Under the pieces are notes generated by a model. That model saw nothing but the letters and a program-made list of their open reading frames with translations, did no database searches and was not told where the DNA came from. A program made the position numbers and the translations under genes. Shown in pieces: positions 40,749 through 63,176 of a stretch of DNA of 64,000 bases; the stretch's first letter is position 1, and every line of letters begins with the position of its first letter. This DNA is from a virus (Duplodnaviria; Caudoviricetes), in IMG/VR virus record IMGVR_UViG_3300034095_001474, positions 64,001 through 128,000 of that record; one strand, given 5' to 3'.

Positions 40749-41183
40749 TCACTGAACACGTAAATATTTAATAGCTTCTGTTAGTATATGTTTACATTCT
40801 CGTAATTGACCAATAGCTGAATTACAATTTCGACAAAGTAACCCTCTAACTTCCATGGTTTCATGGTCATGGTCAACAAATAATCCTTTTGAACCACCTA
40901 ATTGATAATCTTTTTTACAAATAGCACATTTACCATTTTGATTATAATACATACCTTCATATTCTTCTAAAGTAATACCATATCGATATTTCAGCATTCT
41001 TTTCTTTGCTTCAAGTTTTACTTCTTCAACACTTTTAACTATTTTTGGTTTTCTTTCTTTAGGTGTATACCTAGCATTATTAGATATTGATTCGCATTTT
41101 TTACACCAAGAAAATAAACCATTTCCTCTCATTCTAAATTCACAAGAATCTTTATCTTCACCACATTTTGTACATTTTTTCAT
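40749..41183 (-). CDS. endonuclease VII-type (HNH) homing endonuclease
   Basis: CAICK..VDHDH..VRGLLCRNCN; N-terminal CTKC/CKKC. Confidence 0.88.
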   Translation of the reverse strand: MKKCTKCGEDKDSCEFRMRGNGLFSWCKKCESISNNARYTPKERKPKIVKSVEEVKLEAKKRMLKYRYGITLEEYEGMYYNQNGKCAICKKDYQLGGSKGLFVDHDHETMEVRGLLCRNCNSAIGQLRECKHILTEAIKYLRVQ

Positions 41184-41258
41184 AATAACTTTTACTATAA
41201 ATATGTACAAAATTATAAAAGTTCAAATGTCTGAACATGGCAATATAATGAACACTAG

Positions 41259-41498: not shown

Positions 41499-41637
41499 AA
41501 TTTAATAGTTTTTAATTTTTTTATAATAACGTCAGTAGGACTTAAAGGGAACCACTCATTTCTATCCCTTCATCAAACGGTAATTATCCGTTATTTGGCG
41601 TAATCCATACATTGCTGCACGTGTATCCTACTTATTG

Positions 41638-42235: not shown

Positions 42236-42306
42236 AAATAACAGAATGGCATGTTGATTTTCAAATCCAAATTGAAGCTTTTTAATTTGCTGCAACCATT
42301 CTTTAG

Positions 42307-42554: not shown

Positions 42555-43208
42555 TTATTTCCTACCTTTTAACCATCCTTTATTAAGATAGGTATCTATT
42601 TCTTCTTTTTTAATTTTTTTGTTGGTACCATCTTTGGTTATCCAACATGTACCAAATTGTGAATTATTTTCACCACTTCCTTTACCTTTCATTACACTTT
42701 TAAGTAACTTTTTTGTTTCCTCAGAATGTTTCTTATTTTTAAAGTTACCTTCATTAGTCTCAAAATACTTTTTTTGAGACTTACTCATTTTATCTTTATA
42801 CTCTGGTGTTTCTTTTGCTTTAGCTATATTTAACATTCTTTGTTCTTTAGTGTTATTGAAATTGTTAATACCAGCTTCAGTGAAAACTTTTTTATGACTT
42901 TCAGACCAAATACGACCACCACCAGAACCACCCTCTTTTAAATTCATACAATTATTATCATTAATCATATCTGCGGTAATCGCTTTTATTTCAGCTTCAA
43001 TCAATAATTCTCTATTATCAAAGAACTCTAATATCTCTTTAACATGGTTTTTTTTACCATGTTTCCTTATACTATATCTTAATCTCTTTCCACTACCCAT
43101 ATAACCATCATACATGTTACATGTTGAGTGCATACCTATATAATATCTATTTGTCACCAAACAAGTAGTCTTATATAAGTAATGTATGTGCTTTTCTTTC
43201 CTTGCCAT
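42555..43208 (-). CDS. GIY-YIG (Seg-like) homing endonuclease with NUMOD3-type tail
   Basis: YLYKTT..YYIGMH..YMGSG..KEIL; KKHSEETKK. Confidence 0.88.
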   Translation of the reverse strand: MARKEKHIHYLYKTTCLVTNRYYIGMHSTCNMYDGYMGSGKRLRYSIRKHGKKNHVKEILEFFDNRELLIEAEIKAITADMINDNNCMNLKEGGSGGGRIWSESHKKVFTEAGINNFNNTKEQRMLNIAKAKETPEYKDKMSKSQKKYFETNEGNFKNKKHSEETKKLLKSVMKGKGSGENNSQFGTCWITKDGTNKKIKKEEIDTYLNKGWLKGRK

Positions 43209-52010: not shown

Positions 52011-52709
52011 TTATTTAAGATTAATTACTATTCCATTCTTAACTTGCTCGATGGATTGGATTACTTTATTTTTAGCCATATCGTTAGCAGCAAGTTTGCC
52101 TTCGATTTCTTGCAATTTAGGTCCATATTTACCATCAATTGCTTGAAGTTTTGTTTCACGGTCTTGGATTTGTGTTTTAAGAGCCTCCATTTGTTGTCTC
52201 ATCAAATCCAATTCACCTACCAATGATTGATTCTCGTTGGTTTTTAAATCAATCGTTTCTTGTTTCTTTGCATTACCTTTAGCGACATACTCATCGTATA
52301 CCTTTCCAATTTCAGCAATATAAAAGTTTGATTGTTCTACCAACTTATCTTTGGTAATAGTTTTGTCCATACCAGAACCCATCATAAATGCCATTTGGTA
52401 AATCTGTGGGTTGTCAGCACCAGCATTCATTACTGCTTGGAAAAACTCATAGAAATCATATCCAGATTGATTCAGCGAATCAAATCCTTTTTCATAAACT
52501 TCTAGAGCATTGTTCAAATGTTCTTGAGATACACCTACTGGTGCGTATGTTGGTGTTGGACTTGGAGTTGGTGTAGTTGGAAAACTAAACGAACTTGGTT
52601 GACTTGTTTCCGCTGTTGGAAACTTAGTCGTGTTACTTGGTGTTTGCTCAACTGTTGGTACTACTGCACTTTCTTCAGTATCTGTTACAAACCATGATTT
52701 AAAACTCAT
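52011..52709 (-). CDS. hypothetical protein (Pro/Thr linker, coiled coil)
   Basis: first gene of the ABC/OmpA operon; GYDFYEF motif. Confidence 0.75.
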   Translation of the reverse strand: MSFKSWFVTDTEESAVVPTVEQTPSNTTKFPTAETSQPSSFSFPTTPTPSPTPTYAPVGVSQEHLNNALEVYEKGFDSLNQSGYDFYEFFQAVMNAGADNPQIYQMAFMMGSGMDKTITKDKLVEQSNFYIAEIGKVYDEYVAKGNAKKQETIDLKTNENQSLVGELDLMRQQMEALKTQIQDRETKLQAIDGKYGPKLQEIEGKLAANDMAKNKVIQSIEQVKNGIVINLK

Positions 52710-52808
52710 TTTTCTTTTAATTTAATTGTTAATAATAAACTTTTAACAAAGGTACAAAACTTATTTCGATAAAACAAATATATTCGTAAATATTTTTAAA
52801 TTTTTTTG

Positions 52809-52879
52809 AAATTCATACTGGGCTCGAACCAGTGTCTGATGGCTTATCGCCCTCCGTGGTGCCACTCCACTAATGAATC
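52809..52879 (-). ncRNA. tRNA-like RNA with degenerate anticodon loop (Ile GAT-like)
   Basis: intact acceptor, D and T arms; ASL GAGGG-CGATAAG-CCATC lacks U33. Confidence 0.55.
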
Positions 52880-52976
52880 AACTATCTCCTTTTGCTCGGC
52901 AAAGCTCCATTTGATAGACGGATTATACGATATCAACTAGATTGCCGTCCAGTATCATTTGTACTCCCCAATTTTG

Positions 52977-53055
52977 TTGCGATTTGAGGAATTGAACCTC
53001 ACGGGGGTATATCTACCAATTCGTCTCATGAAAACGACCCTACACCATTATCGCA
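52977..53055 (-). ncRNA. rearranged tRNA-like RNA with CAU loop
   Basis: acceptor TGCGAT/ATCGCA, T arm, hairpin TCGTT-TTCATGA-GACGA in unusual position. Confidence 0.45.
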
Positions 53056-53061
53056 ATTTTG

Positions 53062-53219
53062 TTCCGATGGAAGGACTCGAACCTTCATTCTCTGGTAAAG
53101 CCACCAGCGATGTATTCCTTTCTACGTTTGTTAAACCATCAGCTTCGTATTGTACACTACTAGGCTTGAAAACCAAACATTCTTTTATACCAAAAGGCAA
53201 CCAATTCATCTTCATCGGG
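53062..53219 (-). ncRNA. tRNA-like RNA with ~85-nt D-loop insertion
   Basis: CCCGATG/CATCGGA acceptor, GATG/CATC D stem, CTGGT/ACCAG stem with 6-nt loop, T arm. Confidence 0.5.
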
Positions 53220-53421
53220 TGAAGTTTATAAGGGCCGAGAGATTTACCTCCAGACTTCCACCACTTTGTTTTACTAAACAAAGAAAATAAGTAAAAGAGA
53301 AGCTTTGGGTCTTTCGGGGTTTCTGATTGAATGCAATGAGTAAGCTCTACCTACTATAAACCCTTTTTCGGTAATTAATACACTCTACCTTTCAATTACA
53401 GCTTAACTACTTCTCTTTATG

Positions 53422-53528
53422 TACAGAATAAAGGATTCGAACCTTTGAGTCCCCGTGTATAGGTATCATACATACCACATTCCCAGACTTTATGTATGCT
53501 CAACCTTAAGCCACTCGGTCAATTCCAT
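53422..53528 (-). ncRNA. class II-like tRNA with enlarged anticodon arm
   Basis: D arm ACC/GGT, CATACATA/TATGTATG stem with 16-nt loop, T arm AAAGG/CCTTT. Confidence 0.5.
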
Positions 53529-53620
53529 ATTTGAGGCTGAGAAGACCTCTGTGTTGTTATAAAAGAAATGTTTAACATTTCTACGTTCCTTTCTCAATGG
53601 AACAACACAATATTTGAGCA

Positions 53621-53750
53621 TCAAGATTGACTTTTTTGTGCTAGCCAGTTACACCACACGCCCACACCTCTGTTAGGACATGCTGGGATTCGAACCCAGA
53701 CCCTTTGTTTTACAGACAATTTTGGTTTATTTGCTGAAACAATCTTTTGT
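53621..53750 (-). tRNA. candidate circularly permuted tRNA (GUA anticodon)
   Basis: 3' half (53675-53720) precedes 5' half (53638-53663); acceptor GGGCGTG/CATGTCC. Confidence 0.6.
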
Positions 53751-53787
53751 ATGCTCTGTTTAGGTCAGAGGAACCTTCAATGTGGGG

Positions 53788-53915
53788 ACAAGATTAACTT
53801 TTTTTCATACGTGCTCTACCACTGAGCTACCGACCTCTGCGAGACCAGGTGGGATTCGAACCCACGACCACGGCATTAACAAGGCTTGAATTTTTGGTTG
53901 CTGAAATAATCTTTT
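53788..53915 (-). tRNA. candidate circularly permuted tRNA-Asn(GUU)
   Basis: 3' half (53841 to ~53885) precedes 5' half (53810-53836); acceptor AGGTCGG/CTGGTCT. Confidence 0.55.
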
Positions 53916-53965
53916 TACCCTTGCAATATTCTACGCAGTTCCCCACGTAGAGTATTGTTTAACAA

Positions 53966-54601
53966 TTACTTGTTAGATGGTGTCACGTTAATTGACCCAA
54001 CTGAACCAGCTTTAGCTCTTTCGATACCAGCAGCTCTTTCAGCATCTAACTGTAAGTACAATTTAGTTACTTGTTCTTCTAAGAACTTGTTTTGAGTAGC
54101 TAATGTACCAATTTTTGCAGCATTTTCAGCAGCGACAGCTTTGTTCTCAGAGTGGATTAATTTAATCTCATTCTCATACTGAGTTTTCAAAGTTGCAACG
54201 ATAGTTGCTACTTCTTTTTTCACTGTAGCTTCAGTGTTAGTTCTTGCAGTGTCTAAATCAGAACGTAAAGTTGTTAATTCAGATGTTGCGATAGACGTGT
54301 AACCGTTAGATGTTAACCACTGAGTTACAACTCTTTCTTGGTTAGCTCTGAATGATAAGTCTAACTCAACGTCAGCTTGTCTACGTTTTTCAGCGTACTC
54401 AACTTCTAATGCAGAAATTGCTTCTTCTTTATTAGCTACTAACATAGTTAATTGCTCTGATTGGTCCGATAAAGTAGAAACTGTTGCAGTTGCTGCTTTT
54501 AATTCGTTTACAGCTTTAGCGATTTGTGCTGCTGCTTGTCCTAAAACTACTTCTGTGTTTGCAGAAGCTTTTCTTGCTGGTGTACTTTTTGGTGTTGCCA
54601 T
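53966..54601 (-). CDS. Ala-rich coiled-coil protein
   Basis: 211-aa ORF with own promoter. Confidence 0.8.
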   Translation of the reverse strand: MATPKSTPARKASANTEVVLGQAAAQIAKAVNELKAATATVSTLSDQSEQLTMLVANKEEAISALEVEYAEKRRQADVELDLSFRANQERVVTQWLTSNGYTSIATSELTTLRSDLDTARTNTEATVKKEVATIVATLKTQYENEIKLIHSENKAVAAENAAKIGTLATQNKFLEEQVTKLYLQLDAERAAGIERAKAGSVGSINVTPSNK

Positions 54602-54844
54602 ACTTTTTTTTCTTTTTTTACTTTTTTTTTTATTATATTATGATTATTATATCCTTTTTCTATACTACAAATATACGAACATTTTCTTTAAATGTCAAGT
54701 GTTTTTGTAATTATTTTTAAAAAATTTTAGTATTTAACTATTTGATTACCAATACTTTTCAATGAACTTTTTCTATACTACAAATGTACGAACTCTTTTT
54801 GAATAATTCAAACTTTTTTACAATTATTTTTATTTTTTTTTTTG

Positions 54845-54938
54845 TGGAGAGATGTGGATTCGAACCACACTTTGGACGGATATTAAGTTATATCTTTCAA
54901 TAACACCACCCTTACTTTACCAATCAAGCTATCTCTCC
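54845..54938 (-). ncRNA. tRNA-like RNA with elongated anticodon arm
   Basis: GGAGAGA/TCTCTCC acceptor, D and T arms, ~20 extra nt in the anticodon arm. Confidence 0.55.
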
Positions 54939-55211
54939 AAATTACCCTCTGAGATTACGAGGACTAGATTTTAACGGTTTTTTTCATCTTGAACAAAACT
55001 ATCTCTCAATTACGCCTATAGTTTTTAACACTACTCTTTGATTGAGCCTTTACATTAGTGTCTTACCACATAAAAATAAGTCAACCATTACGATGGGGGT
55101 AAGATGGTCTTCTTCCCGATTCCAACGAGTCCCCACTCTGGCCGTAGGACTATCTGCCAAGACGTTGTTTAAGTATCGTCATCATAACTTATGAGTACCC
55201 CTTACTCATTG

Positions 55212-55336
55212 TCGGAAGGGAAGGAATCGAACCTCCAAATAGCAGTCCCTAATAGTAGTTTTATGCTGAACATAATCTTTAAACAGATTAACTTTTTTTT
55301 ACATACTGCCGCCTTTACCAATTTGGCCACCTTCCG
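55212..55336 (-). tRNA. tRNA with ~51-nt anticodon-loop insertion (identity uncertain)
   Basis: CGGAAGG/CCTTCCG, GCAGT/ACTGC stem, insert with AATCT/AGATT hairpin. Confidence 0.6.
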
Positions 55337-55350
55337 AATTTAACTTTAAG

Positions 55351-55423
55351 TGGTGAGAGGTGGATTTGAACCACCGACACATGAGTTTTCAGCCCATTGC
55401 TCTACCAACTGAGCTATCTCACC
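55351..55423 (-). tRNA. tRNA-Phe(GAA)
   Basis: ASL ATGGG-CTGAAAA-CTCAT. Confidence 0.9.
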
Positions 55424-55427
55424 ATAA

Positions 55428-55611
55428 TAACCGAAGATAGATTTATGGAATCTTGCTGCAACCATAAACATCTCTTATAGTCTTTATACTATCGTCATAA
55501 ACATTTATGAGCTTCACACACCATTAGAGAGCCGAGTATTTCTACTTATCCTTAGTGCGACACCCTCCGACACGTCTCTCCACGCTTCCTATCCTACGTC
55601 TTTTTCGGTTA
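55428..55611 (-). ncRNA. candidate structured ncRNA
   Basis: closing stem TAACCGAA/TTCGGTTA, GC-richer than flanks, internal GCAGCAA hairpin, promoter upstream. Confidence 0.4.
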
Positions 55612-55700
55612 CTTTATTTTTAATACTTCAATGAACTTAATTTTAACACTGCAAATGTACAAACAATATTTGATATATGCAAATGTTTTTTATTTTTTTT

Positions 55701-55862
55701 TTAATCTAAATAGATGTCGTGTTGAATTACAGCGTAAGCATCCAGCTTAGCACCCAATTCAAAATAGTAACCGAACATGTCGTCACTAATTGCATTCTCT
55801 AACATATAAATTATATAGTTAGCCATCATCTGCATTGCTTTTTGTAGTATCTTTCTTTTCAT
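55701..55862 (-). CDS. 53-aa hypothetical protein (not in ORF track)
   Basis: MKRKILQKAMQMMANY..IYLD directly after a promoter. Confidence 0.55.
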   Translation of the reverse strand: MKRKILQKAMQMMANYIIYMLENAISDDMFGYYFELGAKLDAYAVIQHDIYLD

Positions 55863-55888
55863 ATTACAAATGTACAACAATTTTTTGA

Positions 55889-56077
55889 TTAATCCAAATT
55901 TTTATTAATATTTTCTTTAAGATTTTTGTTCCCTTTTGAATTTGTTGGGTCAAACGGACAATGCCTACAAATATTTCCGCAGCATGTACCTCTTTTTTTA
56001 AGATAGCGTTCAGTATAAACTATCTTTCCTTTTTCTAGGTAATAATCGATTCCTTCTTCAAAACTAAATTTATCCAT
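55889..56077 (-). CDS. DUF5522-like Cys-rich protein
   Basis: YTERYLKKRGTCCGNICRHCPF. Confidence 0.8.
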   Translation of the reverse strand: MDKFSFEEGIDYYLEKGKIVYTERYLKKRGTCCGNICRHCPFDPTNSKGNKNLKENINKNLD

Positions 56078-56411
56078 TTTTGTTTTTATCTAATATTTTG
56101 TAGAACCATAATTTTATATATTCTCTTTGTTCATTATATGTTTTTTCATTTAATTGGAAATTGAATACATTTTTAATTTCTTTCTCACAAACTATTTTTC
56201 CATGTTTTATCAACCCAATTGAATTTATTTCACCTACTGGAATTAAAGAATGTGAAAAATCATTAACATCACTATCACCTAGAACAGTTAAAAATAAATT
56301 ATACTTACCTTCTTTTATTTTATTAGTATCAAAATAAGTATTAACGTTATTAATTTCAGATTCTTTAATTATCGGTAGTGAAACACTTAAATATAACCAA
56401 TATATTTTCAT
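56070..56411 (-). CDS. hypothetical protein
   Basis: start trimmed to MKIYW, downstream of tRNA-Ala. Confidence 0.6.
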   Translation of the reverse strand: MKIYWLYLSVSLPIIKESEINNVNTYFDTNKIKEGKYNLFLTVLGDSDVNDFSHSLIPVGEINSIGLIKHGKIVCEKEIKNVFNFQLNEKTYNEQREYIKLWFYKILDKNKNG

Positions 56412-56427
56412 TTTTAAATAGTTTTTG

Positions 56428-56500
56428 TGGAGATGATGGGACTCGAACCCACATCCTTTACCTTGCAAAGGTAACGCTCAGCCAATTGAGCTACATCCCC
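56428..56500 (-). tRNA. tRNA-Ala(UGC)
   Basis: G3:U70; ASL TTACC-TTTGCAA-GGTAA. Confidence 0.92.
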
Positions 56501-56583
56501 ATATAGTTTGGTAACTATTCGCAAGTTTCGAACCTTTTAATAGCTTTATATCCATACCCACCAAACCACTGGGTATTTACAAT

Positions 56584-56657
56584 TGGCGGTCCATGAGGGT
56601 AACGCTCCCTCGTCTTCGCAGTGACAGTGCGAGATTCTACTTTTATACTAATGGACC
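56584..56657 (-). tRNA. tRNA-Asp(GUC)
   Basis: G73 with encoded CCA; ASL TCGCA-CTGTCAC-TGCGA. Confidence 0.85.
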
Positions 56658-60933: not shown

Positions 60934-61263
60934 TTGAATATGGGATATGTTTATTTATTTTTAGAGGTTGATAAAGAAGGTAATGAAGCTTATAAGATTG
61001 GTATTACTAAAAATGAGCCAATCAAACGAGTGAAACAATTGCAAACTGGTAATTCACGCAAATTGACTTACCTTAAATCTTATAAATCAGAAAACTACTT
61101 AAAAGTAGAACGTTTTTTACATAGAAAATATATGATAAAAACTGAAGCTGAAAATGAATGGAGAACTCTTACTGATGAACAAGTTATTTCATTCATTAAA
61201 GATTGTGAGGAAGCTGATGAAAATATCAACTTCCTTTTAAAAAACAATCATTTTTATAAGTGA
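60934..61263 (+). CDS. GIY-YIG / T5orf172-like nuclease
   Basis: YVYL..YKIGIT..RVKQLQTGN..E..LH..NEW. Confidence 0.82.
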   Translation: MNMGYVYLFLEVDKEGNEAYKIGITKNEPIKRVKQLQTGNSRKLTYLKSYKSENYLKVERFLHRKYMIKTEAENEWRTLTDEQVISFIKDCEEADENINFLLKNNHFYK

Positions 61264-62429
61264 TAGAATTCTCTTCTAATCTTAATCAACAACTTGTTAA
61301 CCAATTCTGGGTCAATACCTTTAGGTAAATCAGATTCATCAAAAATCCTATCCATCTCTTTGATTTCAGCTTCTGCTGTATCAATAAGTGAATCTAAATC
61401 AATTTCGCCTCTACGAATAGACAATAGATATTCTCTATCTGGTCGTCTTACAATGATTCCTTCACCACGTCCAATTTCTTGTGACATTCTAATAAGTCTC
61501 ATACAATGCATCATATTCTTACCATCAATTTGTTGTCCATGTTTAACCGTATCAACGTATCTTGCAGTGTTTCTATTCTCAACCCATTCCATATATTCTT
61601 TATAGTCCTTGCAGTGAGCTGTATACCCATCTTTGTTGAACATGATGTTACAGATAGGTGTTTCACCCTTTGGAATACTTGATAAACGTAATTGATTGGA
61701 TTCAGCAGCATTATCAGAACCGCCAACCTTAGCAAGAGCCTTATAACCAAATCCCATCGCTTTACCTTGTGATTTTAACTCATTCTTCATAAATTCTCTT
61801 TGTTCTTCACTAAAAAACTCACCAAAACAAGCAGCCGCAATATTATCGTAAAAAACAGCATATAAATCTTTTGCGTGTGGAACATTGGTAATACCTAAGA
61901 ATTTTTCTTCATAACCCAGACCTTCACACCATTTTTTCCATGGAACTGATTGTTCACCTTGAATAACATAACAGAAATCCAACACATCTTTACGAGTAAC
62001 TGAACCTTGTTCTATGTTTTGTTTCTTGTTAAGACCTCTAGCTTTAGATATTTGTTGTACAGCATACCCACCAAATGAGTTCTTACACCCTTTGGTGATA
62101 AAATCAGCCTTGTGGTCCAATACATATTGAAACAATGGATGTTTTGTAATGATACAATCTTCTGGTGTGTTTAATAACTCCAATACTGTCGGATTTGAGC
62201 TTCCCATTAGTTCTAAGAACCTTTTAAGTTCCCAACCAGTATAATCCTTGTTTACGTTTAATTGTTCAACGTAACCAGTCCCTAAGATGTAATCTTGTGG
62301 TAAGATATATACAAACTTCTTATCAACATCAGATGTTGGAGTTTGTGTTCCATATGCTTGTGACCCAATGATACATTCAAATAGGATAAGCCCGTTTTGT
62401 TCTAAGTATTCGTGTGTAATCTTTTCCAT
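61254..62429 (-). CDS. Pol-beta superfamily nucleotidyltransferase (RlaP/YcgL-like)
   Basis: GSQAYGT..SDVD; KNMMHCMRL. Confidence 0.82.
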   Translation of the reverse strand: MEKITHEYLEQNGLILFECIIGSQAYGTQTPTSDVDKKFVYILPQDYILGTGYVEQLNVNKDYTGWELKRFLELMGSSNPTVLELLNTPEDCIITKHPLFQYVLDHKADFITKGCKNSFGGYAVQQISKARGLNKKQNIEQGSVTRKDVLDFCYVIQGEQSVPWKKWCEGLGYEEKFLGITNVPHAKDLYAVFYDNIAAACFGEFFSEEQREFMKNELKSQGKAMGFGYKALAKVGGSDNAAESNQLRLSSIPKGETPICNIMFNKDGYTAHCKDYKEYMEWVENRNTARYVDTVKHGQQIDGKNMMHCMRLIRMSQEIGRGEGIIVRRPDREYLLSIRRGEIDLDSLIDTAEAEIKEMDRIFDESDLPKGIDPELVNKLLIKIRREFYHL

Positions 62430-62711: not shown

Positions 62712-63176
62712 TTATCCTAAATTATTCAAATATCTTTTATATAATCTACAAGTACCAGAACTATTAAATAATTTACCTTTTACTGTTTTATAACCATTTT
62801 TGTTTAAAATGTCAGCTATCTTATCGTAAGAATAACCTTTATTTCTACCATCAACAACAACAACCATAGCTTTTTTATTATTTTCATTGTCTAAAGCTTT
62901 TTGTTTAATAGCTCTATTACCCTTATCTTTAGCTTCTTGAGTCAAGTTTTCTGGTTTACCTAACTTCACACCACGAGCTTTAGCTTTTTGTAATCCCTCA
63001 ATTGTTAACCGTTTATGGTCTGGTCTATTTTTTAATCCATGAACCTTACAGTGACATTCAACACATAATGGTATTGTTTTAGTACCACCTCGAACTCTAG
63101 GTATTACATGGTGCATTTCACCATAAGGTTCACCACATTCAAAACAAATATCTGTATCAATTGTTATTATAGCCAT
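62712..63176 (-). CDS. HNH endonuclease fused to recombinase-type DNA-binding segment
   Basis: CFEC..HHVIPRVRGG..LCVECH; TIEGLQKAKARGVKLG. Confidence 0.72.
   Translation of the reverse strand: MAIITIDTDICFECGEPYGEMHHVIPRVRGGTKTIPLCVECHCKVHGLKNRPDHKRLTIEGLQKAKARGVKLGKPENLTQEAKDKGNRAIKQKALDNENNKKAMVVVVDGRNKGYSYDKIADILNKNGYKTVKGKLFNSSGTCRLYKRYLNNLG

What the first reader, a model, noticed from the sequence alone, without database searches (positions are those of the whole stretch)
55212..55336. tRNA intron carrying the same junction motif as the permuted tRNAs
In normal order, the ~51-nt insert reads TATGT-A8-GTTAATCT-gtttaa-AGATTATGTTCAGCAT. These are the same two strands that close the permuted elements, here linked as a hairpin. 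One motif in both topologies parallels the archaeal BHB and suggests a dedicated, unknown splicing signal or small ribozyme. Removing the insert between the repeated TAT gives loop AU-UAG-GG on a short-arm C1-G72/A73 body, so the identity is ambiguous.
Basis: partly seen in the sequence, partly recalled or inferred. Interest (0 to 1): 0.72.

Follow-up and report, generated by a model that had tools for sequence, protein, structure and literature searches.

The report
Phage tRNA mimic with Ro60 handle
The "tRNA intron" is most likely not an intron: a lake-water giant phage has replaced the anticodon loop of a leucine-type tRNA with the conserved docking hairpin that its small RNAs use for a Ro60-like ring protein. 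The result is a tRNA-shaped "Y RNA" with a free acceptor end, a layout I could not find described.

Summary
Minus strand 55336-55212 is a well-formed tRNA body (Rfam tRNA, 47.5 bits) with 58 nt where a 7-nt anticodon loop belongs. The extra ~51 nt carry the same module (A-run, YAATCT/AGATTR helix, UUCAGCA) that closes the two permuted tRNA-like units at 53912-53624.

The splicing or ribozyme reading is not supported:
- The module is the "handle" of a large phage RNA family. It encloses bodies that could never yield a tRNA.
- It lies beside genes for a DUF2828 protein, which I show folds like Ro60. It also co-occurs with that gene in related genomes.
- Permuted unit P1 matches Rfam YrlA below threshold.
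- The body derives from phage tRNA-Leu(UAG/CAA). Across nine family members the former anticodon drifts (UAG, UCG, UGG, UUG), and two members cannot form a U33 loop.
- I found no bulge-helix-bulge geometry, and no EndA or RtcB gene in complete relatives. One RNA-library contig reads unspliced into the handle.

Best reading (about 0.6): a Y-RNA-like tRNA mimic in native tRNA order with an open acceptor end. Excision remains possible (about 0.2).

This scan has reported the handle/Ro60-like system before, on this and other phage DNA. I found no paper on it.

The parts
55212..55336 (-). Whole element I: a 125-nt tRNA-shaped RNA in native 5'-to-3' tRNA order, with the handle module where the anticodon loop should be. 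No CCA is encoded (ACA follows).
   Evidence: Rfam RF00005, 47.5 bits, model positions 1-71. Family alignment A3: 96.7% of cells paired, 10 pairs with compensatory change.
55330..55336 (-). Acceptor stem 5' strand, CGGAAGG. It pairs with 55219-55213 (CCUUCCG). A73 is at 55212.
   Evidence: 7/7 pairs. In the family, 4 of 7 pairs show changes on both sides.
55311..55327 (-). D arm, GCC-AAAUUGGUAAA-GGC (3-bp stem, 11-nt loop with G18 G19). This is the D arm of phage tRNA-Leu genes.
   Evidence: A pattern scan of viral contigs finds the same D arm mostly in insert-free tRNA-Leu(CAA/UAG) genes. L086 is identical to the window over tRNA positions 10-31.
55305..55309 (-). Anticodon-stem 5' strand, GCAGU. 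It pairs with 55246-55242 (ACUGC).
   Evidence: Covaries as GCGG/CCGC in relatives.
55291..55304 (-). 5' joining segment, AUGU + A8 + GU (the A-run of the handle).
   Evidence: The A-run is present in every family member.
55273..55290 (-). Handle helix UAAUCU (55290-55285) / AGAUUA (55278-55273), capped by loop GUUUAA (55284-55279).
   Evidence: Invariant in 7 family members. TAACTT/AAGTTA in L077/L081 is a double compensatory change. P2 has CAAUCU/AGAUUG. Loop length and sequence vary (4-9 nt).
55263..55272 (-). Conserved unpaired motif UGUU-CAGCA-U, directly 3' of the helix. This is the signature of the handle family.
   Evidence: GTTCAGCA is invariant in all normal-order elements. CAGCA(A/U) follows stems of many different sequences next to DUF2828 genes.
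55247..55262 (-). 3' joining segment AAAACUACUAUUAGGG. Its last bases, U-UAG-GG, are the remnant of a tRNA-Leu(UAG) anticodon loop.
   Evidence: Insert-free cousins have loops YUUAGRN. In family members the triplet reads UAG, UCG, UGG or UUG.
55220..55236 (-). T arm, GGAGG-UUCGAUU-CCUUC.
   Evidence: 4 of 5 pairs show compensatory change in the family.
53791..53912 (-). P1: permuted tRNA-like unit closed by the same module (AGAUUA-UUUCAGCA ... A7-GU-UAAUCU).
   Evidence: Rfam YrlA RF02553, 41.4 bits, full model, E 5e-8 in a local search, below the gathering score of 69.
53624..53745 (-). P2: second permuted tRNA-like unit with a covarying helix (AGAUUG ... CAAUCU) and an internal Tyr-like anticodon hairpin (CUGUAAA).
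   Evidence: Partial YrlA match, 17.5 bits.
55441..55470 (-). Bare handle-like hairpin UUAUGG-U-UGCAGCAA-GAUU-CCAUAA, in the leader of the same transcription unit, upstream of tRNA-Phe (55423-55351).
   Evidence: A TACATTTG -7 box lies at 55659-55652.

Best explanation
Element I is a gene for a stable, unspliced small RNA of about 125 nt: a Y-RNA-like tRNA mimic.

Its body descends from a phage tRNA-Leu(UAG/CAA) with a short variable arm. It keeps the acceptor, D and T arms and the anticodon stem. It is transcribed in a tRNA operon 14 nt after tRNA-Phe, so its ends are probably made like those of a tRNA (RNase P at the 5' end, trimming and CCA addition at the 3' end).

Where the anticodon loop was, it carries the handle module: an A-run, a 6-7-bp helix and the unpaired motif UUCAGCA. 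This is the shared signature of a large family of phage RNAs that accompany a DUF2828/DUF7788 protein with the Ro60 ring-plus-vWA fold.

The handle most likely docks that protein, so the RNA tethers a tRNA-shaped module to the ring, as YrlA does for bacterial Ro60. In YrlA and in the neighbouring units P1 and P2, the acceptor end is sealed and the chain ends lie in the handle. Here the handle is capped and the acceptor end is free. It is the circular permutation of a YrlA-type RNA back to tRNA order.

Shown: the RNA architecture and its conservation; homology of the body to tRNA-Leu; the shared module; the module's link to the Ro60-fold gene in relatives and in diverse phages.

Inferred: that the protein binds the handle; that the insert stays in the mature RNA; what the free acceptor end is used for.
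For: 1. The same module is present at P1 and P2 (3 matches against 0.01-0.02 expected). P1 matches Rfam YrlA over the full model (41.4 bits, E 5e-8 locally).

2. The module is the most conserved part of the element. In 7 family members the handle helix and GTTCAGCA are invariant, while the acceptor and T stems carry 8 pairs with compensatory changes. L077/L081 change the helix by a double compensatory swap, so it is a real helix.

3. The module occupies different sites in different tRNA bodies. In this family it sits inside the anticodon loop. In complete tRNA-Asp/Glu bodies of other lake phages it sits between the D arm and an intact anticodon arm. It also closes bodies that hold no tRNA: a bare hairpin at 55470-55441, a lone anticodon-like hairpin at 42302-42243, and 35-45-nt bodies beside DUF2828 genes.

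4. Link to the protein.
- DUF2828 genes occur in 7 of 8 handle-bearing records that are at least 46% complete, and in 0 of 6 control records that are at least 53% complete.
- In 80 diverse DUF2828 loci, 32 handle matches in 25 loci lie within 700 nt of the gene ends on the gene's strand. The reversed-sequence control gives 2. Density is six-fold lower further out.
- The protein model (pLDDT 94.4) has Ro60/TROVE structures as its 13 best PDB matches over its full length (E 2e-9 to 4e-5). DxSxS is invariant in the vWA part.

5. There is no decoding constraint. The former anticodon reads UAG (window, L021, L035), UCG (L026), UGG (L068, L081, L025) and UUG (L077). L077 and L081 differ by that one base. 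L025 and L071 cannot form a loop with U33 at any junction. The window already has ordinary tRNA-Leu(UAG) and (UAA) genes.

6. A 245-nt contig from a lake metatranscriptome run lies on 55336-55246 without a gap, from tRNA position 1 through the whole handle. This is weak evidence, because DNA carry-over is possible.
Against: - Nothing shows directly that the protein binds this RNA or that the insert is retained. The RNA evidence is one low-depth contig from a related strain.
- I could not read this phage's own Ro60-like gene. It is not in the 64-kb window; only earlier unchecked notes place it about 31 kb beyond the window. One close relative, at 58% completeness, lacks it.
- The window copy and its closest relatives keep U-UAG-G (with G37, as in CUN-reading tRNAs) next to the stem. 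This would give a proper Leu anticodon loop if the insert were removed precisely.
- The tRNA-Asp/Glu bodies with the handle keep canonical anticodon loops, which could mean these RNAs still decode after removal of the handle.
- The neighbouring tRNA-Asn gene has a 21-nt insert at the canonical intron site, so some tRNA splicing activity may exist in this system.
- The phages encode an Rnl2-type RNA ligase.
Confidence: 0.6

Rival explanations
1. Protein-spliced intron. The ~51 nt are cut out by an unidentified endonuclease that recognises the handle, perhaps presented by the Ro60-like protein. The halves are joined by the phage RNA ligase, giving a short-arm tRNA-Leu(UAG). P1 and P2 would then be permuted pre-tRNAs matured through a circular intermediate, as in Cyanidioschyzon.
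For: - Precise removal between the UAU repeats gives a 7-nt loop AU-UAG-GG with U33 and G37 on a body whose insert-free cousins are tRNA-Leu(UAG/CAA).
- The same module stands at the chain ends of permuted tRNA-like units.
- In other phages, handle-bearing tRNA-Asp/Glu bodies keep canonical anticodon loops.
- An Rnl2-type ligase is present in relatives and an RlaP nucleotidyltransferase in the window.
- The neighbouring tRNA-Asn has a 21-nt insert at 37/38.
- Wang et al. 2018 (10.1101/312249) themselves raise processing of YrlA-like RNAs as a possibility.
Against: - There is no bulge-helix-bulge: no 3-nt bulges spaced by a 4-bp helix can be drawn at the junctions.
- Three complete relatives have no EndA-family or RtcB gene.
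- The anticodon is not conserved within the family, and two members cannot form a U33 loop.
- P1 has no anticodon arm.
- The module also encloses non-tRNA bodies.
- Exact-pattern scans of 2.9 million viral contigs found no insert-free allele of this body's 3' half.
- The insert is more conserved than the exons.
Confidence: 0.2
2. Self-cleaving or self-splicing small ribozyme. The module itself catalyses cleavage at both junctions, and a ligase or the reverse reaction joins the exons.
For: The sequence is strictly conserved (A-run, helix, UUCAGCA) and stands at the junctions in both topologies.
Against: - No hit to any Rfam ribozyme or intron family, even at E up to 10.
- The module is about 35 nt, with one 6-7-bp helix and otherwise unpaired A-rich strands. 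The predicted fold is not more stable than shuffles (z = -1.2).
- The same motif follows stems of unrelated sequence beside a Ro60-fold gene, which fits a protein-binding site.
Confidence: 0.03
3. Decaying tRNA gene. A tRNA-Leu copy was disrupted when a handle module was inserted by recombination, and the element has no function of its own.
For: The former anticodon drifts. Ordinary tRNA-Leu genes exist in the window. The island 52800-55340 holds several aberrant tRNA-like genes.
Against: - The whole element is kept in at least 12 other contigs whose neighbouring protein is only 59-90% identical.
- 10 stem pairs are maintained by compensatory changes, 96.7% of cells are paired, and the G18G19 and UUCGA tertiary-contact bases are intact.
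- Unrelated tRNA bodies show the same design.
Confidence: 0.07

Closest known systems
YrlA (Y RNA-like A, Rfam RF02553), partner of bacterial and mycobacteriophage Ro60/Rsr (Chen et al. 2014, PMC4201824; Wang et al. 2018, 10.1101/312249)
   Same: An L-shaped tRNA mimic with D and T arms and their tertiary-contact bases. It has no anticodon loop; at that position stands a stem module that docks a Ro60-type ring protein. The neighbouring unit P1 matches the YrlA model over its full length.
   Different: In YrlA the acceptor stem is a closed loop and the 5' and 3' ends lie in the Ro60-binding stem. Here the acceptor end is open, as in a tRNA, and the docking stem is capped by a loop. The handle sequence (A-run, helix, UUCAGCA) is not the YrlA Rsr site. 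The partner is a DUF2828/DUF7788 protein that Pfam's TROVE model does not detect. Element I itself gives no YrlA hit.
Deinococcus radiodurans Yrn1 Y RNA
   Same: A Y RNA whose tRNA-like arms are ordered differently, relative to the chain ends, from those of YrlA. This shows that Ro60 partners tolerate different connectivities (PMC4201824).
   Different: Yrn1 has only partial tRNA likeness and its ends are still in the Ro60-binding stem. It has no free acceptor end.
Archaeal/eukaryal protein-spliced tRNA introns and permuted tRNA genes (bulge-helix-bulge motif, EndA/TSEN endonuclease; Cyanidioschyzon merolae permuted tRNAs; PMC4090602)
   Same: One RNA motif appears both inside a normal-order tRNA gene and at the ends of permuted ones. 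The insert lies in the anticodon loop.
   Different: No 3-4-3 bulge-helix-bulge geometry. No EndA or RtcB gene in complete relatives. The insert is more conserved than the exons. The anticodon is not conserved. The motif also encloses non-tRNA bodies.
Group I introns in bacterial and phage tRNA-Leu anticodon loops (Rfam RF00028)
   Same: Host gene type (tRNA-Leu) and insertion in the anticodon loop.
   Different: Those introns exceed 200 nt and have a P1-P9 catalytic core. This insert is 51 nt with one helix, and Rfam gives no match.
Class I RNAs of dictyostelid amoebae (PMC7919456)
   Same: The layout: a short stem joining the two ends, a conserved unpaired motif directly after the 5' strand of the stem, and a variable body.
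   Different: Eukaryotic, 42-65 nt, with no tRNA body. I did not compare the motif letters; earlier notes of this scan claim that they match. This is a lead only.

Membership tests
Phage handle RNAs that accompany DUF2828/DUF7788 (Ro60-fold) genes (uncatalogued family) | A 6-8-bp helix whose 5' strand is followed within 0-4 nt by unpaired CAGCA(A/U) | tested here: met
   AGAUUA-UGUU-CAGCAU at 55278-55263. Same layout next to DUF2828 genes.
Phage handle RNAs that accompany DUF2828/DUF7788 (Ro60-fold) genes (uncatalogued family) | An A-rich run directly before the 3' strand of the helix | tested here: met
   A8-GU before UAAUCU, 55300-55285.
Phage handle RNAs that accompany DUF2828/DUF7788 (Ro60-fold) genes (uncatalogued family) | Helix kept by covariation while the CAGCA motif stays constant | tested here: met
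   UAAUCU/AGAUUA (element I, P1); CAAUCU/AGAUUG (P2); TAACTT/AAGTTA (L077, L081); many other stems at DUF2828 loci.
Phage handle RNAs that accompany DUF2828/DUF7788 (Ro60-fold) genes (uncatalogued family) | A Ro60-fold DUF2828 gene in the same genome | tested here: inconclusive
   Not in the 64-kb window, and no whole genome is held. Present in 7 of 8 sufficiently complete handle-bearing relatives. Earlier notes place it about 31 kb beyond the window; I did not check this.
YrlA (Rfam RF02553) | tRNA-like D and T arms with G18G19 and the UUCRA T loop | tested here: met
   alignment to RF00005.
YrlA (Rfam RF02553) | Closed acceptor stem-loop, with the chain ends paired in the Ro60-binding stem | tested here: not met
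   The acceptor stem is open (55336 and 55212 are the ends of the tRNA match). The handle is capped by GUUUAA.
YrlA (Rfam RF02553) | Score at or above Rfam's gathering threshold (69 bits) | tested here: not met
   No YrlA match on element I at E up to 10. P1 reaches 41.4 bits.
Bulge-helix-bulge tRNA intron (archaeal/eukaryal type) | Two 3-nt bulges separated by a 4-bp helix at the exon-intron junctions | tested here: not met
   Inspection of the 58 nt and the predicted fold. The strands next to the anticodon stem cannot form a 4-bp central helix.
Bulge-helix-bulge tRNA intron (archaeal/eukaryal type) | EndA-family splicing endonuclease available | tested here: not met
   PF01974 absent from five related records, three of them 100% complete; controls were positive. 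The host genome is unknown.
Bulge-helix-bulge tRNA intron (archaeal/eukaryal type) | Excision restores a conserved, functional 7-nt anticodon loop | tested here: not met
   Possible for the window copy (AU-UAG-GG). Across the family the triplet is UAG, UCG, UGG or UUG, and L025 and L071 lack U33.
Group I intron (RF00028) or small self-cleaving ribozymes | Match to the family's sequence and structure model | tested here: not met
   No such family listed for 52700-55500 at E up to 10.
Elongator tRNA (RF00005) | Cloverleaf with acceptor, D, anticodon-stem and T helices | tested here: met
   47.5 bits against a gathering score of 29.
Elongator tRNA (RF00005) | 7-nt anticodon loop presenting an anticodon | tested here: not met
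   58 nt lie between the stem strands.

The most novel reading that the evidence does not exclude
The handle is a true RNA-processing signal. The Ro60-like ring protein, or a partner it recruits, holds handle-flanked tRNA pieces so that they are cut and re-ligated by the phage RNA ligase. This would give bacteria-infecting viruses a protein-dependent tRNA splicing and permutation pathway unrelated to the bulge-helix-bulge/EndA system. Element I would be a pre-tRNA-Leu, the Asp/Glu forms pre-tRNAs with an intron at 26/27, and P1/P2 permuted pre-tRNAs.
Probability: 0.12. Interest if true: 0.92.

Novelty: new variant of a known kind. Interest (0 to 1): 0.6.

Why it matters
- Ro60-Y RNA particles are known from animals, bacteria and a few phages, but the purpose of the tRNA-like half of bacterial Y RNAs is unknown. 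A natural version with tRNA connectivity and a free acceptor end offers a direct handle on that question. One can ask whether it is CCA-tailed, aminoacylated or modified, and which tRNA enzyme or anticodon nuclease it engages.
- The partner protein family is very large: 6,721 cluster representatives at E up to 0.001. I found no published RNA partner for it.
- There is a practical consequence for annotation. tRNA finders report such genes as intron-containing or permuted tRNAs; ARAGORN calls this one Pro(AGG). Phage tRNA repertoires and "tRNA intron" counts can therefore be wrong.

Tried and rejected
- **Close phage records.** megablast of 52600-56600 against 50,697 phage records gave no match. 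No whole genome is held for the window.
- **Pfam TROVE (PF05731).** No hit in five related records. The relationship to Ro60 appears only by fold. A sequence search of PDB gave only E = 1.1 to the phiLo TROVE protein.
- **RNA-seq.** Six lake metatranscriptome runs hold small parts of the stretch, and four were laid. They are contigs, not reads, and cover 55203-55380 only at depth about 2 in one run. No joint across the insert was reported, but with this cover that says nothing about splicing. Other joints (52968 to 53054 and several involving 53869/55398) look like strain differences or tRNA-to-tRNA mis-joins.
- **False handle hits.** Apparent handles at L015:173 and L016:213 near the DUF2828 gene of close relatives turned out to lie in a conserved coding region. 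They were dropped.
- **Insert-free alleles.** Exact-pattern scans for the 3' halves of the body found only insert-bearing copies or unrelated tRNAs. The scans see only near-identical sequence.
- **Fixed-distance cutting rule.** Measuring cut sites from the helix gives no single rule that yields U33 in all members.
- **MITE or transposon insertion.** Rejected, because the inverted repeat is internal to the insert and not terminal, and the insert is at the same site in all relatives.
- **Terminator or attenuator hairpin.** Rejected, because no U-run follows.
- **Neighbouring tRNA-Asn.** A homologue of the intron-bearing tRNA-Asn was sought in fetched loci; none was found.
- **Other ORFs at 39.6-64 kb.** Pfam scans found homing-endonuclease-type genes, a GNAT and RlaP, but nothing resembling a tRNA splicing endonuclease.

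Full report
**What is there**

On the minus strand, 55336-55212 reads CGGAAGG-UG-GCC(AAAUUGGUAAA)GGC-G-GCAGU-[58 nt]-ACUGC-UAUUU-GGAGG(UUCGAUU)CCUUC-CCUUCCG-A. Rfam's tRNA model matches end to end at 47.5 bits, with a single large insertion in the anticodon loop. ARAGORN sees the gene only in intron mode and calls it Pro(AGG) with a 53-nt intron.

The 58 nt are AUGU, eight A, GU, helix strand UAAUCU, loop GUUUAA, helix strand AGAUUA, UGUUCAGCAU, and AAAACUACUAUUAGGG.

The element lies 14 nt after tRNA-Phe (55423-55351). A TACATTTG -7-type box at 55659-55652 appears to head the transcription unit. That word is four-fold over-represented in the window, 22 of its 27 copies lie on the coding strand, and the next one stands at 54788-54781.

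**The shared module is real**

AGATTRT(N)TTCAGCA and AAAAAAGTYAATCT each occur three times in 64 kb, against 0.01-0.02 expected. The sites are in element I and at the two ends of the permuted tRNA-like units P1 (53912-53791) and P2 (53745-53624). P2 has CAAUCU/AGAUUG where the others have UAAUCU/AGAUUA, a compensatory change.

In element I the two strands are joined by a 6-nt loop. In P1 and P2 they are the chain ends, and the acceptor stem is sealed by a short linker.

**What the permuted units are**

P1 matches Rfam's YrlA model (the tRNA-mimicking Y RNA of bacterial Ro60) over all 114 positions at 41.4 bits. E is 5e-8 for the local search, but the score is below the curated 69 bits. Earlier notes of this scan had read P1 and P2 this way, and I re-tested the parts that matter here.

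[quoted passage not shown] It notes the resemblance to circularly permuted tRNAs (PMC4201824; 10.1101/312249).

**Relatives**

The neighbouring ORF (53966-54601) led to 14 related viral loci at 59-90% protein identity. Pattern scans for the capped module and for the D arm added more.

The same design (this body plus the module in the anticodon loop) exists as nine distinct sequences: the window, L021, L035, L026, L025, L068, L071, L077 and L081.

In seven of them, aligned as A3, 96.7% of stem cells pair and ten pairs show changes on both sides: four in the acceptor stem, four in the T stem, and one each in the D and anticodon stems. The six handle pairs and GTTCAGCA never vary. L077 and L081 have TAACTT/AAGTTA, a double compensatory swap inside the handle helix.

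The insert is therefore the most constrained part of the gene, and its helix forms in RNA.

**Origin of the body**

The D arm GCC(A/C)AAUUGGUA(A/G)AGGC belongs to phage tRNA-Leu genes. Most of the 56 viral loci with this D arm are insert-free tRNA-Leu(CAA) or (UAG) genes. Many of these have a short variable loop and A73. L086 is identical to the window over tRNA positions 10-31.

The bases next to the 3' stem strand of the window copy (U-UAG-GG) are thus a remnant of a Leu(UAG) anticodon loop. That remnant is not kept across the family:
- UAG in the window, L021 and L035
- UCG in L026
- UGG in L068, L081 and L025
- UUG in L077

L077 and L081 differ by just that base. L025 and L071 cannot give a loop with U33 at any junction. 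A decoding tRNA on a Leu body would not tolerate this. The window also has ordinary tRNA-Leu(UAG) and (UAA) genes.

**The module is not tied to one site, or to tRNAs**

In a second group of lake-phage RNAs (L020, L041, L044, L048, L054, L059, L070), the same capped module lies between the D arm and an intact anticodon arm of tRNA-Asp(GUC) or tRNA-Glu(UUC/CUC). Whatever deletion is tried around the module, ARAGORN's commonest call is the same anticodon.

L055 and L069 are normal-order versions of the P1-type body.

In the window, the motif also follows stems that enclose no tRNA: UUAUGG-U-UGCAGCAA-GAUU-CCAUAA at 55470-55441, a Pro-like anticodon hairpin inside AGAAUGG/CCAUUCU at 42302-42243, and another unit near 41619. 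A splice signal has no purpose in such contexts. A modular protein-docking tag does.

**The partner**

Pfam's TROVE model finds nothing in five related records. DUF2828 (PF11443) finds a 472-495-residue gene in 7 of 8 handle-bearing records that are at least 46% complete, and in none of 6 control records of at least 53% completeness.

One such protein (P0001, DUF2828 + DUF7788) was modelled from 98 diverse relatives, with pLDDT 94.4 and pTM 0.93. Its 13 best PDB matches are all Ro60/TROVE structures aligned over the full length: Thermus phage phiLo, Xenopus, human and Deinococcus, with E from 2e-9 to 4e-5 and mostly TM 0.5-0.6. After these come only vWA domains. DxSxS is invariant.

In 80 diverse DUF2828 loci from viral contigs (45-100% identity), a simple handle detector was used: stem, CAGCA(A/U) within 3 nt, and an A-rich run before the partner strand. 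It finds 32 matches in 25 loci within 700 nt of the gene ends on the gene's strand. The reversed sequences give 2, and density further away is six-fold lower. The stems differ widely between loci.

The link between the handle and the Ro60-fold protein is therefore supported by my own tests. Physical binding is inferred.

I could not verify the gene in this phage itself. It is not in the window, and earlier notes place it about 31 kb beyond.

**Against splicing or catalysis**

- No 3-4-3 bulge-helix-bulge can be drawn.
- Rfam lists no intron or ribozyme family for the island, even at E up to 10.
- EndA and RtcB models find nothing in five related records, three of them complete, while the controls respond.
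- An Rnl2-type ligase and an RlaP nucleotidyltransferase are present, as in many jumbo phages with RNA-repair sets (PMC7824862).
- One 245-nt contig of a lake metatranscriptome run lies on 55336-55246 without a gap, from tRNA position 1 through the handle. This is compatible with an unspliced RNA, but it is low-depth and DNA carry-over is not excluded.

**Points that keep excision alive**

- Precise removal in the window copy would give a good Leu(UAG) loop with G37.
- The Asp/Glu forms keep canonical anticodon loops.
- The neighbouring tRNA-Asn(GUU) at 54938-54844 has a 21-nt insert at the canonical 37/38 site whose AUAAC can pair with the anticodon.

**Verdict**

Element I is best read as a Y-RNA-like tRNA mimic derived from tRNA-Leu. 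The anticodon loop is replaced by the docking handle of a phage Ro60-like protein. It is written in native tRNA order, so the acceptor end is free. This is the circular permutation of the YrlA-type units that lie 1.3 kb downstream.

My odds: about 0.6 for this reading, 0.2 for an excised intron, and under 0.1 each for a dead gene or a ribozyme.

I found no paper describing RNA partners of DUF2828 proteins or a normal-order, open-acceptor Y RNA. The scan itself has reported the handle/Ro60-like system repeatedly, on this genome and on others.

Noticed in passing
window 54844-54938 (-): tRNA-Asn(GUU) (Rfam tRNA 36.9 bits; ARAGORN in intron mode) has a 21-nt insert, UUGAAAGAUAUAACUUAAUAU, exactly at the canonical 37/38 intron site. 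GUUAU (anticodon, A37 and the first insert base) can pair with AUAAC inside the insert, like the anticodon-intron helix of archaeal and eukaryal pre-tRNAs. No homologue in the loci I fetched.
   Followed up: partly
window 55441-55470 (-): Bare handle-like hairpin UUAUGG-U-UGCAGCAA-GAUU-CCAUAA in the leader of the tRNA-Phe / element I transcription unit, about 20 nt upstream of tRNA-Phe.
   Followed up: partly
window 42243-42302 (-) and about 41530-41630 (-): Two more handle-type units inside the other tRNA cluster. Stem AGAAUGG/CCAUUCU followed by U-UGCAGCAA encloses a Pro(UGG)-like anticodon hairpin. Stem GUAGGA/UCCUAC carries UGCAGCAA. The stem AGAATGG/CCATTCT also occurs beside a DUF2828 gene in L176.
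   Followed up: partly
window 54939-55211 (-): About 270 nt between element I and tRNA-Asn have no ORF and no Rfam match. They contain hairpins (GAGUAAGGGGUACUC) and a stretch GAUGAAAAAAACCGUUAAAAUCU that resembles the A-run strand of the handle. Unassigned.
   Followed up: no
window 52808-53520 (-): A row of aberrant tRNA-like genes with good T arms and acceptor stems but odd interiors: 53519-53421 (ARAGORN His, 11-nt insert), 53219-53061, 53055-52976, and tRNA-Tyr(AUA) at 52879-52808. One RNA-run contig skips 52969-53053 (85 nt, with a 10-nt repeat at the joint), probably a strain lacking one unit.
   Followed up: no
L041:325-443, L044:7219-7342(-), L048, L054, L059:7077-7188(-), L020:6140-6251(-), L070: Other lake phages carry complete tRNA-Asp(GUC) or tRNA-Glu(UUC/CUC) bodies with the same capped handle inserted between the D arm and the anticodon arm (position 26/27). 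L070 also has a 21-nt hairpin inside its T arm.
   Followed up: partly
L055 and L069: Normal-order versions of the P1-type body (GUAGCUCAGUGGYAGAGCACGUA...) with the capped handle. L055 encodes C1-G72, A73 and CCA. The same body type therefore exists in both topologies in different phages.
   Followed up: no
L097, L106, L115, L124: Phage tRNA-Leu genes with the same D arm carry long (over 90 nt) inserts after the anticodon stem. These may be group I introns; not examined.
   Followed up: no
L027, L042, L043, L050, L051, L075: At the 3' end of an ORF in six small contigs, a hairpin TAATCT-TGCCAT-AGATTA followed by AGTTCAGCA lies directly before an intrinsic terminator. This looks like a handle in an mRNA 3' end, with no tRNA nearby.
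   Followed up: no
window 61254-62429 (-): RlaP-family nucleotidyltransferase (PF10127, 2e-21; phrog_388), an RNA-repair enzyme that usually travels with RNA ligases. Homing-endonuclease-type genes (42555-43208, 40749-41210, 62712-63176) are scattered among the tRNA clusters.
   Followed up: partly
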